A stretch of DNA of 32,000 nucleotides from Candidatus Heimdallarchaeota archaeon (GTDB lineage Archaea; Asgardarchaeota; Heimdallarchaeia; JABLTI01), in the NCBI GenBank assembly GCA_030614005.1, contig JAUWKS010000006.1:58213-90212 (forward strand), written 5' to 3'. The notes under the pieces were generated by a model. It saw only the letters and a list, made by a program, of their open reading frames with translations. It searched no databases and was not told where the DNA came from. Below are positions 9,183 to 20,942 of the stretch, one piece after another (positions within the stretch are counted from its first letter, which is position 1; the number at the start of each line of letters is the position of its first letter). Both the position numbers and the translations under genes were made by a program.

Positions 9183-9611
9183 ATGTCATCATTATGGAGA
9201 AATAAAACTAATAGAACAATATTGATTTCATCAATATTTCTAGCGCTTGCTTTAGCCTTAATTATTTTCATAGCTGTTTACGATGTAGAGAATAAACCAT
9301 TAACTGGTTTAATGTGGTTATTTAGTGATGCTGGTGCAATAATAATTGTTGGACTATTGTTCTGGATAATATATTTCGGTCTTTTACTCCTCGTTGGAAG
9401 TATCCGCGAAAAGATGGATGCGCTCCCAGGTTGGACTGAAGTAATCATTTGTGCACTCATTACATTATTACCTGCAATATTCCTTGGCAATTTAGACAAC
9501 TTTTGGAAACCTTGGATTGTTTTTGGTATTGCTGCTTTAGGTGTAATTCTAATTTCACTATGGTTCTTAATGAGTTCAACACCAAGAGAAGAAACATCCG
9601 CAAAATCATAA
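9183..9611 (+). CDS. Hypothetical 4-TM membrane protein
   Basis: 142 aa with four hydrophobic segments, followed by a terminator-like hairpin. Confidence 0.75.
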   Translation: MSSLWRNKTNRTILISSIFLALALALIIFIAVYDVENKPLTGLMWLFSDAGAIIIVGLLFWIIYFGLLLLVGSIREKMDALPGWTEVIICALITLLPAIFLGNLDNFWKPWIVFGIAALGVILISLWFLMSSTPREETSAKS

Positions 9612-9637
9612 GAGATTCACTTTTGAATCTTTTTTTT
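9610..9637 (+). terminator. Hairpin plus T-tract, probable terminator of 9183..9611
   Basis: AGATTCA (9613-9619) pairs with TGAATCT (9624-9630). The stem extends to 9610-9633 with one G-U pair and is followed by a T run. Confidence 0.6.
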
Positions 9638-9716
9638 ACTATTTTTAATATTGGCAAGTACCTATCATACGTAATTCCTTTGTTTCTATTCACTCTTTAG
9701 GTAAAATTTATTTACT

Positions 9717-9957
9717 AATAGATTTCTCAGTTCTCTTGTAAGGCAAAAACCACCTAAATATCGGTCTTCACACTGAACTGAAAATCGCGCTGCGGTATTC
9801 ATCTTGCTCTTTAGATTAGACCGAGTCCCAAATCCTTAATCATCTATTCGCTCATTCGGATTGGATCTTTATGGAATAAACTTTTCATTGGAAAGCTTTA
9901 AGGGATTCCATGGAAGATTTTTGCTGAAAGATAATTCAATAAGAAAAAAAATCAGCA
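9717..9957 (+). ncRNA. Candidate structured RNA (5' leader or independent ncRNA) upstream of the sdo1-exosome operon
   Basis: No credible ORF found by manual translation. Pairings: 9721-9733/9775-9786 (12 bp, 1 bulge); 9761-9767/9818-9824 (7 bp, crosses the first stem); hairpins 9842-9866, 9865-9918 and 9922-9957. The G-U pairs favour the + strand. No family recognised. Confidence 0.45.
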
Positions 9958-9988
9958 TAAAAGTTGATTAAAAAGGAAAGGTGTCAAA

Positions 9989-10726
9989 ATGTCCCACGAT
10001 TCCGGTGAAAGAAGACAATTTATTGATTTAGAGAAGAAAGCTCTTGTTAGATATGTCTATCGAAACCAAAAGTTTGAGATCATTGTTGATCCGGAACTGG
10101 CTTTAGATTATAAGAAAGGAAAGGAGATTCTTCTTTCCGATATAGTTGAAAGCTTTGTTGTTTTTCACAATGCATCCAAAGGCGCGAAAGCTTCAGAAAT
10201 TATTTTAGAACAAATATTTGAAACGAATAACGCTGAAGAAATAGCCAAAATTATTCTCACAAAAGGTGCTTTACAACTTACACAAGCTCAACGAAAGCGT
10301 TTACTTAAAGACAAAGAAGATGAAATCATTAATTTCATTCATATCCATTGTGTGAATCCACAAACAAATAAACCTCATCCCCCCGCAAGAATTGAGGCTG
10401 CAATGGATGAAGCTGGAGTACATATCGATTATAATCTAGCCCCTGAAATACAAGCAAAAGAGGTTATCAAACTTATTCAAACTATCATTCCAATAAGATT
10501 GGAATCCGTAGTTTTAGCAGTCAAAGTAACCCCTGATTTTACGGGACCAGCTTATGGTATAGTTGCTGGTGCAGGCGAACTCATTGAAGACCAATGGGGT
10601 GATGATGGAGTTTGGTATGCAAAAGTAGAAATGCCATCCGGTAAACAAGCAGACTTTCTTGATAAGATAAACACTTTAACAAAAGGTAAAGCTGAAGTGA
10701 AGATAGTAGAACGAAAGAGTGAGTGA
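9989..10726 (+). CDS. sdo1: Ribosome maturation protein SBDS/Sdo1
   Basis: KFEIIVDP, VFHNASKGAKAS, INFIHIHCVNPQTNKPHPPARIEAAMDEAGVHID, and C-terminal EMPSGKQADF; canonical position before rrp4. Confidence 0.96.
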   Translation: MSHDSGERRQFIDLEKKALVRYVYRNQKFEIIVDPELALDYKKGKEILLSDIVESFVVFHNASKGAKASEIILEQIFETNNAEEIAKIILTKGALQLTQAQRKRLLKDKEDEIINFIHIHCVNPQTNKPHPPARIEAAMDEAGVHIDYNLAPEIQAKEVIKLIQTIIPIRLESVVLAVKVTPDFTGPAYGIVAGAGELIEDQWGDDGVWYAKVEMPSGKQADFLDKINTLTKGKAEVKIVERKSE

Positions 10727-20824: not shown

Positions 20825-20942
20825 GGATCCGTAGCGCAGTTTGGATAGCGCATCTGCCTCCTAATGTATTAAAATAGGAGATATCTATAGAAAAACAGGA
20901 GAAAGCAGAGGGTCGTGGGTTCAAATCTCACCGGATCCGCCA
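20825..20942 (+). tRNA. tRNA-Arg(CCT) with 40-nt intron at 37/38 (20864-20903) and encoded CCA
   Basis: Acceptor GGATCCG/CGGATCC, D arm GCGC/GCGC, anticodon stem TCTGC/GCAGA with CCT at 20860-20862, T arm GTGGG-TTCAAAT-CTCAC. Strict BHB: CTCC/GGAG helix, bulges TAA and AAA, outer helix TGT/ACA. Confidence 0.96.

What the first reader, a model, noticed from the sequence alone, without database searches (positions are those of the whole stretch)
9717..9957. Unassigned ~240-nt structured RNA with a pseudoknot upstream of the SBDS-exosome-Brix operon
This gap is non-coding yet less AT-rich than other intergenic DNA, and it is densely self-complementary (seen in sequence). P1 is 9721-9733/9775-9786 (12 bp, one bulge). 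9761-9767, inside the P1 loop, pairs with 9818-9824 (7 bp Watson-Crick), giving a pseudoknot. Hairpins follow at 9842-9866, 9865-9918 and 9922-9957. There are mutually exclusive alternatives: 9831-9839 vs 9871-9877 competing for 9898-9911, and 9717-9723/9842-9848 vs the 9842-9866 hairpin. All G-U pairs in the hairpins fall on the + strand. The element ends ~30 nt before the sdo1 start, where psmA/rpp14/rpp30 sit in the canonical archaeal superoperon (established). It could be a switch-like leader that autoregulates RNA-decay and ribosome-maturation genes, or a new ncRNA class (inference). No RNase P, SRP or known riboswitch core was recognisable.
Basis: partly seen in the sequence, partly recalled or inferred. 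Interest (0 to 1): 0.7.

Follow-up and report, generated by a model that had tools for sequence, protein, structure and literature searches.

The report
New structured RNA upstream of SBDS-exosome operon
One family of Heimdall-group Asgard archaea carries a previously undescribed, roughly 190-base folded RNA with its own promoter just ahead of the genes for ribosome maturation (SBDS) and RNA decay (exosome); its fold is backed by compensatory mutations, but its function is still unknown.

Summary
The element is window 9738-~9926 (+), about 189 nt. A conserved BRE/TATA (9700-9714) lies 23 nt upstream of its first base. A terminal helix P1 pairs the first transcribed bases with a U-rich 3' end.

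A covariance model finds one full-length copy in 11 of 11 genomes of one Heimdallarchaeia family, always between a 142-aa membrane-protein gene and SBDS. It finds none in 70 other genomes of the class or in 150 Asgard genomes. On the 13-sequence alignment, 25 of 44 pairs show double changes and 91% of cells pair (35-55% when the register is slid). G-U pairs outnumber A-C 58 to 8, which favours the + strand.

The window copy alone folds no better than shuffles (z -1.2); homologues do (z -2.9, -4.3). No Rfam family matches, and RNase P RNA lies elsewhere.

Whether it acts in cis (a leader/attenuator of the SBDS-exosome operon, slightly favoured) or as a stand-alone RNA cannot be settled without RNA data.

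The parts
9683..9699 (+). Conserved element upstream of the promoter (TTTCTATTCACTCTTTA); possibly a regulator-binding site
   Evidence: Nearly invariant in all clades of the family, while the flanking spacer cannot be aligned. Not found upstream of tRNA or RNase P RNA genes of the same genome.
9700..9714 (+). BRE (GGTAAAA) plus TATA box (TTTATTTA, 9707-9714)
   Evidence: GTAAAA(T/C)TTATTTA is conserved in 12 of 12 upstream sequences, with a fixed 22-23 nt spacer of non-conserved sequence to the RNA's first base. It resembles the tRNA and RNase P RNA promoters of this genome.
9738..9926 (+). The structured RNA (~189 nt). The start is predicted at G9738 (pyrimidine-purine step); the 3' end lies at or just after the U5-GCU at 9918-9925.
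   Evidence: Full-length covariance-model matches in 11/11 family genomes, one per genome. Covariation; the independent lowest-energy (MFE) folds of homologues give the same architecture.
9742..9749 (+). P1 5' arm (GGCAAAAA); pairs with 9918-9925
   Evidence: 96% of cells paired. G010 carries GACAAAA/UUUUGUC, a double change that keeps the helix. In other clades the helix extends to bases 1-4 with GCUUU.
9918..9925 (+). P1 3' arm (UUUUUGCU). Its T5 run is as long as the terminators of this genome's tRNA and RNase P RNA genes.
   Evidence: T4-T5 runs follow tRNA and RNase P RNA genes.
9750..9751 (+). Tentative P1 extension (CC) pairing with GG 9912-9913 across a 3' bulge
   Evidence: Seen in the lowest-energy (MFE) folds of homologues: ACCU/AGGU in G003, AACC/GGUU in G008 and CUAU/AUAG in G011, read. 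Not tested by column counts because the alignment is out of register there.
9761..9767 (+). P2 5' arm (UCGGUCU); pairs with 9818-9824 (AGACCGA)
   Evidence: 96.6% paired; 4 of 7 pairs have changes on both sides (UCGAUCU/AGAUCGA, UCAGCCU/GGGCUGA, UGGUC/GACCA).
9780..9800 (+). P2a hairpin (core 9785-9788/9792-9795, loop GCU)
   Evidence: A hairpin at this place in most clades (weak or absent in G009, none predicted in G011), with unrelated sequences: 8 bp in G004, 9 bp with a UUCG loop in the G003 group. 4 of 4 core pairs covary.
9804..9817 (+). Invariant unpaired strand UU(R)CUCUUU(M)GAUU in the P2 internal loop
   Evidence: CTCTTT.GATT is invariant in all 13 sequences. No partner was established.
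9818..9824 (+). P2 3' arm (AGACCGA)
   Evidence: See the P2 5' arm.
9826..9829 (+). P3 5' arm (UCCC); pairs with GGGA 9902-9905
   Evidence: 94% paired; 3 of 4 pairs have double changes (CCCC/GGGG in G009; CCCUUGA/UCAAGGG in G007).
9833..9875 (+).
   Evidence: Hairpins of different sequence at the same place in all clades. 13 of 15 modelled pairs have double changes. The loop motif CAnCCUUU is shared by four clades.
9881..9895 (+). P5 hairpin CUUUUC-AUU-GGAAAG; sequence nearly invariant (TTTTCATTGG invariant)
   Evidence: 97% paired, but 4 of 6 pairs never vary. The conservation is therefore of sequence, pointing to a recognition site. In G011 the same strand can instead pair with a downstream CCAAUGAAA.
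9902..9905 (+). P3 3' arm (GGGA)
9927..9988 (+). A-rich linker to SBDS with a Shine-Dalgarno (SD) sequence GGTG at about -12 to -9. It is 41-59 nt long in the family, measured from the covariance-model end (window 9929), and has no conserved motif other than the SD.
9989..10726 (+). SBDS gene, first gene of the SBDS-rrp4-rrp41-rrp42-rpl37ae cluster
   Evidence: Pfam SBDS_N, domain II and C; downstream genes.

Best explanation
Window 9738-~9926 (+) is a discrete, family-specific structured RNA. Transcription starts at its own conserved BRE/TATA promoter. The first bases pair with a U-rich 3' segment (P1), closing a three-way junction. One arm is P2 with P2a and an invariant 14-nt single strand. 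The other arm is P3, carrying the variable hairpin P4 and the invariant hairpin P5.

Most likely it is the 5' leader of the SBDS-rrp4-rrp41-rrp42-rpl37ae unit. On this reading the operon is read from this promoter, and the U5-6 tract inside the P1 3' arm acts as a partial, adjustable stop. A trans factor bound to the invariant loops would set how much transcript runs on into SBDS or stays stable. That factor is probably an RNA-binding protein of ribosome maturation or RNA decay, possibly one encoded downstream.

Shown: the RNA's existence, strand, limits to within a few bases, fold, promoter, distribution and synteny.
Inferred: co-transcription with SBDS, attenuation at the U tract, and the nature of the bound factor.
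For: - Promoter: it is conserved at a fixed distance from the first base of P1 in every clade.
- Distribution: one copy per genome in 11/11 family genomes, always on the same strand and 41-59 nt upstream of SBDS.
- Fold: supported by covariation, by homologue energies of z -2.9 and -4.3, and by the G-U excess on the + strand.
- Need for a promoter here: the upstream gene ends in its own hairpin plus T8 (9612-9640). SBDS therefore needs a promoter inside the gap, and the only strongly conserved promoter there is the RNA's.
- The linker to SBDS: SBDS has a conserved SD sequence, so it is not leaderless, yet the linker has no conserved BRE/TATA.
- The stop signal: only T5-T6 (T4 in G009, broken in G011), and in the window's clade no further T run follows, so read-through is plausible.
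- Other families: they lack the RNA, have only 72-217 nt upstream of SBDS, and place a promoter of similar sequence 62-70 nt before the ATG.
- Downstream genes: they encode RNA-binding proteins, including ribosomal protein L37Ae. That is the usual setting of autoregulatory leaders (established for bacterial and some archaeal r-protein operons).
Against: - No transcript data exist.
- The T5 run matches the stops of bona fide stable RNA genes in this genome, and P1 starts at the very first transcribed bases. Both features are typical of stand-alone stable RNAs.
- No conserved alternative structure and no conserved pairing with the SD region was found.
- The purine block plus T run at the 3' end (AAAGG-TATTTTTGC in some clades) could itself be a BRE/TATA for a separate SBDS promoter, at the same distance from the ATG as in family f2.
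- The similarity between the f1 RNA promoter and the f2 SBDS promoter needs indels and may be generic.
- No sequence mimicry of 23S rRNA longer than 10 nt.
Confidence: 0.42

Rival explanations
1. Stand-alone, trans-acting stable RNA. It is transcribed from its own promoter and ends at the UUUUUGCUUU stretch. It works as the scaffold of a family-specific ribonucleoprotein or as a base-pairing RNA, while SBDS has its own weak promoter overlapping or just after the RNA's 3' end.
For: - P1 pairs the first transcribed bases with the 3' end, as in RNase P RNA, SRP RNA and 5S rRNA (established).
- The T5-T6 run, plus a second T3 in most clades, equals the stops of this genome's tRNA and RNase P RNA genes.
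- It has six helices with strong covariation and two invariant sequence blocks.
- The 41-59 nt linker is just long enough for a TATA box, a 23-nt spacer and a short SD-bearing leader, and A/T-rich TATA-like words lie at the RNA's end.
- No expression platform was found.
Against: - It is restricted to one family and fixed at one locus.
- No partner protein is known.
- The linker has no conserved promoter.
- In the window's clade only T5 is present, and the GC after the T run is conserved and paired, so the RNA must run past the T run.
- No extended complementarity to 23S rRNA, and exact complements of the invariant blocks occur at chance level in the genome.
Confidence: 0.36
2. Metabolite- or ion-sensing riboswitch. 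The three-way junction closed by P1 is an aptamer, and ligand binding stabilises P1 and changes termination at the U tract.
For: - The architecture (a P1-closed junction with invariant junction and loop bases, immediately 5' of an operon) is that of many riboswitch aptamers (established).
- The P1 3' arm contains the U tract.
Against: - The downstream genes are not metabolic or transport genes.
- No Rfam riboswitch matches.
- No conserved alternative structure was found.
- The very narrow distribution and single locus per genome are unusual for riboswitches.
Confidence: 0.07
3. No functional RNA. The conservation would reflect DNA-level signals only (promoters, regulator sites), and the pairings would be chance in A/T-rich DNA.
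For: - The window copy folds no better than shuffles.
- Parts of the conserved sequence are plausibly promoter DNA.
Against: - 25 of 44 pairs have compensatory double changes. 91% of cells pair against 80% in shuffles (0/500 reach it) and 35-55% when slid.
- Hairpins of unrelated sequence occupy the same positions.
- Homologues fold at z -2.9 and -4.3.
- G-U outnumbers A-C 58 to 8.
Confidence: 0.03

Closest known systems
Autoregulatory mRNA leaders of ribosomal-protein and RNA-binding-protein operons (bacterial r-protein leaders; archaeal L1 and L7Ae 5'-UTR sites)
   Same: A structured RNA directly upstream of, and on the same strand as, an operon encoding RNA-binding proteins including a ribosomal protein (L37Ae). 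Lineage-restricted. Conserved loops suit protein recognition.
   Different: No known leader precedes SBDS or exosome genes. It is larger and more complex than the known archaeal examples. No K-turn and no sequence mimicry of 23S rRNA was found. Co-transcription and binding are untested.
Riboswitch aptamers built on a P1-closed three-way junction (e.g. TPP, purine classes)
   Same: A terminal P1 helix closes a multi-helix junction with invariant unpaired bases, the element lies 5' of an operon, and the P1 3' arm abuts a termination signal.
   Different: No Rfam match. The downstream genes are not metabolic. No conserved expression platform. One locus per genome, in one family only.
Stable RNAs with paired termini (archaeal RNase P RNA, SRP RNA)
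   Same: Own strong promoter, a 5'/3' terminal helix, a short oligo-T stop, and a multi-helix fold with covariation.
   Different: It is not RNase P RNA; that gene is at another contig and scores 125 bits. It is not universal but confined to one family. No partner protein is known.
Orphan structured RNA motifs found by comparative genomics (e.g. Weinberg et al. 2010, PMC2864571)
   Same: Defined only by conserved sequence, covariation and gene context, with function unknown.
   Different: This one comes from Heimdall-group Asgard archaea and lies next to ribosome-maturation and RNA-decay genes.

Membership tests
Any Rfam 15 family | Score at or above the family's gathering threshold | tested here: not met
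   Only two tRNAs pass in the window. In E-value mode on 9550-10050 and on five homologous loci, nothing better than E 0.37 appears, and no match overlaps the element on its + strand.
Archaeal RNase P RNA | Match to RF00373 with its conserved regions; one copy per genome | tested here: not met
   The genome's RNase P RNA is at G000:C82:11342-11674 (125 bits). The element gives no RF00373 match at E up to 10.
C/D box sRNA | Conserved C box (RUGAUGA) and D box (CUGA) next to a terminal stem | tested here: not met
   No UGAUGA on the + strand. CUGA at 9924-9927 occurs only in the window's clade. Only minus-strand C/D matches were found, at E 5.8 and 8.5.
H/ACA sRNA | Hairpin with a pseudouridylation pocket followed by a conserved ACA triplet | tested here: not met
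   No conserved ACA follows any hairpin in the 13-sequence alignment (read by eye).
Y RNA | Ro60 (TROVE) partner protein encoded in the genome | tested here: not met
   TROVE (PF05731) was not found in 12 of 12 family genomes, 64-92% complete.
Riboswitch (as a kind) | Aptamer: a P1-closed junction with conserved unpaired bases | tested here: met
   P1, P2 and P3 form a three-way junction, with invariant single strands and covariation.
Riboswitch (as a kind) | Conserved expression platform with a mutually exclusive structure | tested here: not met
   No consistent pairing of the RNA with the SD region. The 9922-9957 hairpin and other alternatives are clade-specific.
Riboswitch (as a kind) | Specific small-molecule ligand | not testable with these tools
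   Needs in-line probing or binding assays.
Autoregulatory leader of an RNA-binding-protein operon | Lies in the 5' UTR and is co-transcribed with the regulated genes | not testable with these tools
   No RNA run holds the locus. The context is compatible.
Autoregulatory leader of an RNA-binding-protein operon | Mimics the regulator's natural RNA site (e.g. on rRNA) | tested here: inconclusive
   Sequence comparison with the genome's 23S rRNA gives only 7-10-nt chance-level matches (one 12-nt match with a mismatch). 16S is missing from the assembly, and structural mimicry was not tested.
Stand-alone stable ncRNA gene | Own promoter, paired termini, oligo-T stop | tested here: met
   BRE/TATA at a fixed distance; P1; a T5-T6 run like those after tRNA and RNase P RNA genes. 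Whether a discrete transcript exists was not testable.

The most novel reading that the evidence does not exclude
The RNA is a new functional class specific to Heimdall-group archaea, the closest known relatives of eukaryotes. One possibility is the RNA subunit or cofactor of a ribonucleoprotein acting in ribosome maturation or exosome-mediated RNA decay. The other is a new riboswitch or protein-sensing attenuator that ties expression of the SBDS-exosome-L37Ae cluster to a growth signal.
Probability: 0.15. Interest if true: 0.85.

Novelty: new variant of a known kind. Interest (0 to 1): 0.58.

Why it matters
Very few structured RNAs other than tRNA, rRNA, RNase P RNA and SRP RNA are known from Asgard archaea, and I found none reported that is tied to the ribosome-maturation and RNA-decay superoperon. 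This one has unusually clear comparative support for an RNA known from only a dozen genomes. It also gives a defined promoter, defined limits and two invariant recognition-type motifs that can be tested directly. If it controls SBDS and exosome expression, it would be a rare case of RNA-based operon control in archaea. If it acts in trans, it is a new ribonucleoprotein RNA in the lineage closest to eukaryotes.

Tried and rejected
- Rfam at gathering and E-value thresholds, on the window and on homologues: nothing.
- RNase P RNA: found elsewhere in the genome.
- Y RNA: no TROVE protein in the family.
- C/D and H/ACA sRNA: boxes absent.
- Small ORF: only 29-38-aa frames.
- Minus-strand RNA: rejected by the G-U/A-C ratio and the promoter direction.
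- rRNA complementarity or mimicry: only chance-level matches to 23S, nearly all 7-10 nt; 16S is not in the assembly.
- Genome-wide complements of the invariant blocks: chance level.
- Pairing of the RNA with the SBDS Shine-Dalgarno (SD) region: best sites differ in every genome.
- Expression: no RNA holder was listed among public runs; only DNA runs from marine sediment and cold seeps appeared.
- Metagenome pattern scan: 78 loci, of which 6 are true matches. Five are identical or at least 97% identical to lineages already held; the sixth is a 3'-truncated copy of the same lineage group.
- Wider search with a second model over 150 Asgard genomes: no credible hit. The best one lies inside a 682-aa protease ORF.
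- Homology of the RNA's promoter to the family-f2 SBDS promoter: suggestive by eye, but MAFFT does not align the TATA boxes and indels are needed. I keep it as weak evidence only.
- Tertiary pairings (P4 loop or the CUCUUU strand with the purine block before the P1 3' arm): registers differ between clades, so nothing is claimed.
- Earlier notes of this scan: none on this element.

Full report
**Setting**

The window is G000:C81:58213-90212. Near-identical SBDS loci in GenBank are titled 'Candidatus Heimdallarchaeota archaeon' MAGs. The DNA occurs in marine-sediment and cold-seep metagenomes.

The gap 9612-9988 lies between a 142-aa membrane-protein ORF with no Pfam match (9183-9611, +) and SBDS (9989-10726, +). 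Rrp4, Rrp41, Rrp42, L37Ae, a 217-aa ORF and a Pcc1-like gene follow. The upstream gene ends in a hairpin plus T8 at 9612-9640. No ORF over 38 aa lies in 9700-9988.

**First checks on the window alone**

- Rfam finds only two tRNAs in the window and nothing credible in the gap.
- G+C is higher here (0.34-0.43) than in neighbouring spacers (0.15-0.30).

**Conservation**

BLAST against 40 relatives showed the whole gap at 85% identity in two close genomes, and a conserved core in four more distant ones. In all of them the order 142-aa gene - gap (330-385 nt) - SBDS is kept.

Aligning the gaps revealed discrete conserved blocks:
- a BRE/TATA-like block, GTAAAA(T/C)TTATTTA, at 9700-9714, preceded by a conserved 17-mer;
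- then GTAAGGCAAAAA, TCGGTCT, CTCTTT(M)GATT-AGACCGAGTCCC, TTTTCATTGGAAAG, and GGAA...TTTTTGC.

The 22-23 nt between the TATA box and GTAAGG is not conserved in sequence but is fixed in length. That places the start at about G9738, on a pyrimidine-purine step.

**Fold**

Lowest-energy (MFE) folds of eight homologues, each computed separately, all pair the 5' GGCAAAAA with the 3' UUUUUGC(U). I built a covariance model from the four closest sequences with a hand-set structure.

- The model finds exactly one full-length match in each of the 11 other genomes of the same family (two genera; one assembly, G001, carries it on two contigs) and in the window's own genome.
- It finds none in 70 genomes of the six other families of the class.

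The 13-sequence alignment gives these figures:
- 91.4% of cells are paired, against 80.4% in column shuffles (0 of 500 reach the observed value) and 35-55% when partners are slid by 1-3 columns.
- 25 of 44 pairs carry changes on both sides.
- P2 (9761-9767/9818-9824) reads UCGGUCU/AGACCGA, UCGAUCU/AGAUCGA, UCAGCCU/GGGCUGA and UGGUC/GACCA in different clades.
- P3 (9826-9829/9902-9905) reads UCCC/GGGA, CCCC/GGGG and CCCUUGA/UCAAGGG.
- P2a and P4 are hairpins of unrelated sequence at the same positions.
- P5 (9881-9895) is invariant in sequence, so it is conserved as a motif rather than proven as a helix.
- P1 shows one clear double change, GACAAAA/UUUUGUC in G010.

A caveat applies: the alignment was fitted to the model, which favours the structure. 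The well-anchored helices P2 and P3 do not depend on that.

Two homologues fold far better than shuffles and reproduce the same architecture without any constraint: z -2.90 and -4.29, 0 of 200 shuffles each. They add a short P1 extension (CC with GG; CUAU/AUAG in G011). The window's own copy is marginal (z -1.18).

G-U pairs outnumber A-C 58 to 8. Together with the promoter direction, this fixes the + strand.

- The 9761-9767/9818-9824 pairing and the 9842-9866 hairpin are real.
- The proposed P1 (9721-9733/9775-9786) pairs 12/12 in the window, 9/12 in the closest relative and 7/12 or fewer elsewhere. Its 5' arm lies upstream of the predicted start.
- There is therefore no pseudoknot.
- The 9922-9957 hairpin and the 'competing' pairings are specific to the window's clade.

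**Distribution**

- A metagenome pattern scan added no new lineage.
- A second model built from all 13 sequences found no credible match in 150 Asgard genomes. The best hit lies inside a 682-aa protease ORF.
- In other Heimdallarchaeia families the space upstream of SBDS is only 72-217 nt and the neighbouring gene is mostly divergent. Their SBDS promoter (GAAAAATCTTATAAATC) sits 62-70 nt before the ATG.
- The RNA is thus an addition specific to this one family.

**What it is not**

- Not RNase P RNA; that gene is at C82:11342-11674 with 125 bits.
- Not any Rfam family, also when homologues are searched.
- Not a C/D or H/ACA sRNA; the boxes are absent.
- Not a Y RNA; no TROVE protein occurs in the family.
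- Not coding.
- No complementarity or similarity to 23S rRNA beyond chance-level short matches, nearly all 7-10 nt.
- No enrichment of complements to the invariant blocks in the genome.

**Cis or trans?**

For a leader:
- The only strongly conserved promoter in the gap is the RNA's.
- SBDS has a conserved SD sequence but no conserved BRE/TATA in the 41-59-nt A-rich linker.
- The stop signal is short and sits inside P1.
- The downstream genes encode RNA-binding proteins.

For a stand-alone RNA:
- P1 begins at the first transcribed bases.
- tRNA and RNase P RNA genes of this genome stop at T4-T5 runs no longer than the RNA's T5-T6.
- The purine block plus T run could double as an SBDS promoter at the distance seen in family f2.
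- No conserved alternative structure or anti-SD pairing exists.

No RNA-seq run holds the locus. I put the leader/attenuator at 0.42, a stand-alone RNA at 0.36, a small-molecule riboswitch at 0.07 and 'no functional RNA' at 0.03. The remaining 0.12 is left for readings not listed.

**Verdict**

This is a genuine RNA family, supported by covariation and not described before as far as Rfam 15, the searched literature and this scan's notes show. It is confined to one Heimdallarchaeia family and fixed in front of the SBDS-exosome cluster.

Noticed in passing
window 9612-9640: Hairpin (AGATTCA...TGAATCT) followed by T8, directly after the stop of the 142-aa membrane-protein gene. It looks like that gene's terminator and is kept in the two closest relatives.
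   Followed up: partly
window 20825-20939: A tRNA match of 115 nt (Rfam 51.6 bits), too long for a plain tRNA and so probably intron-bearing. My ARAGORN run on the genome did not list it.
   Followed up: no
L188-L191 (23S rRNA of G000, G009, G007, G005): 23S rRNA genes of the same genus span 3259, 3389, 4075 and 4282 nt. This suggests large insertions (expansion segments or introns) in some members.
   Followed up: no
L003 and L011 (G001 contigs C36 and C465): Two contigs of one MAG overlap over the RNA but differ at several bases. The MAG therefore mixes two strains, and one contig ends inside the gap.
   Followed up: partly
L164-L180, about 62-70 nt upstream of SBDS: Family-f2 genomes share a strongly conserved SBDS promoter block (TTCTC.ATCTTGAAAAATCTTATAAATCTGG). 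It resembles the promoter block upstream of the RNA in family f1.
   Followed up: partly
G000:C71:90626: ARAGORN calls a 'tRNA-Pyl (cta)' in this genome. It may be a false call or a real suppressor-type tRNA.
   Followed up: no
clade of G008/G003/G006/G002, linker after the RNA (L019, L021-L023): A perfect 6-bp hairpin (CTTACT-AAA-AGTAAG) lies between the RNA's end and the SBDS SD sequence in this clade only. Its meaning is unknown.
   Followed up: no
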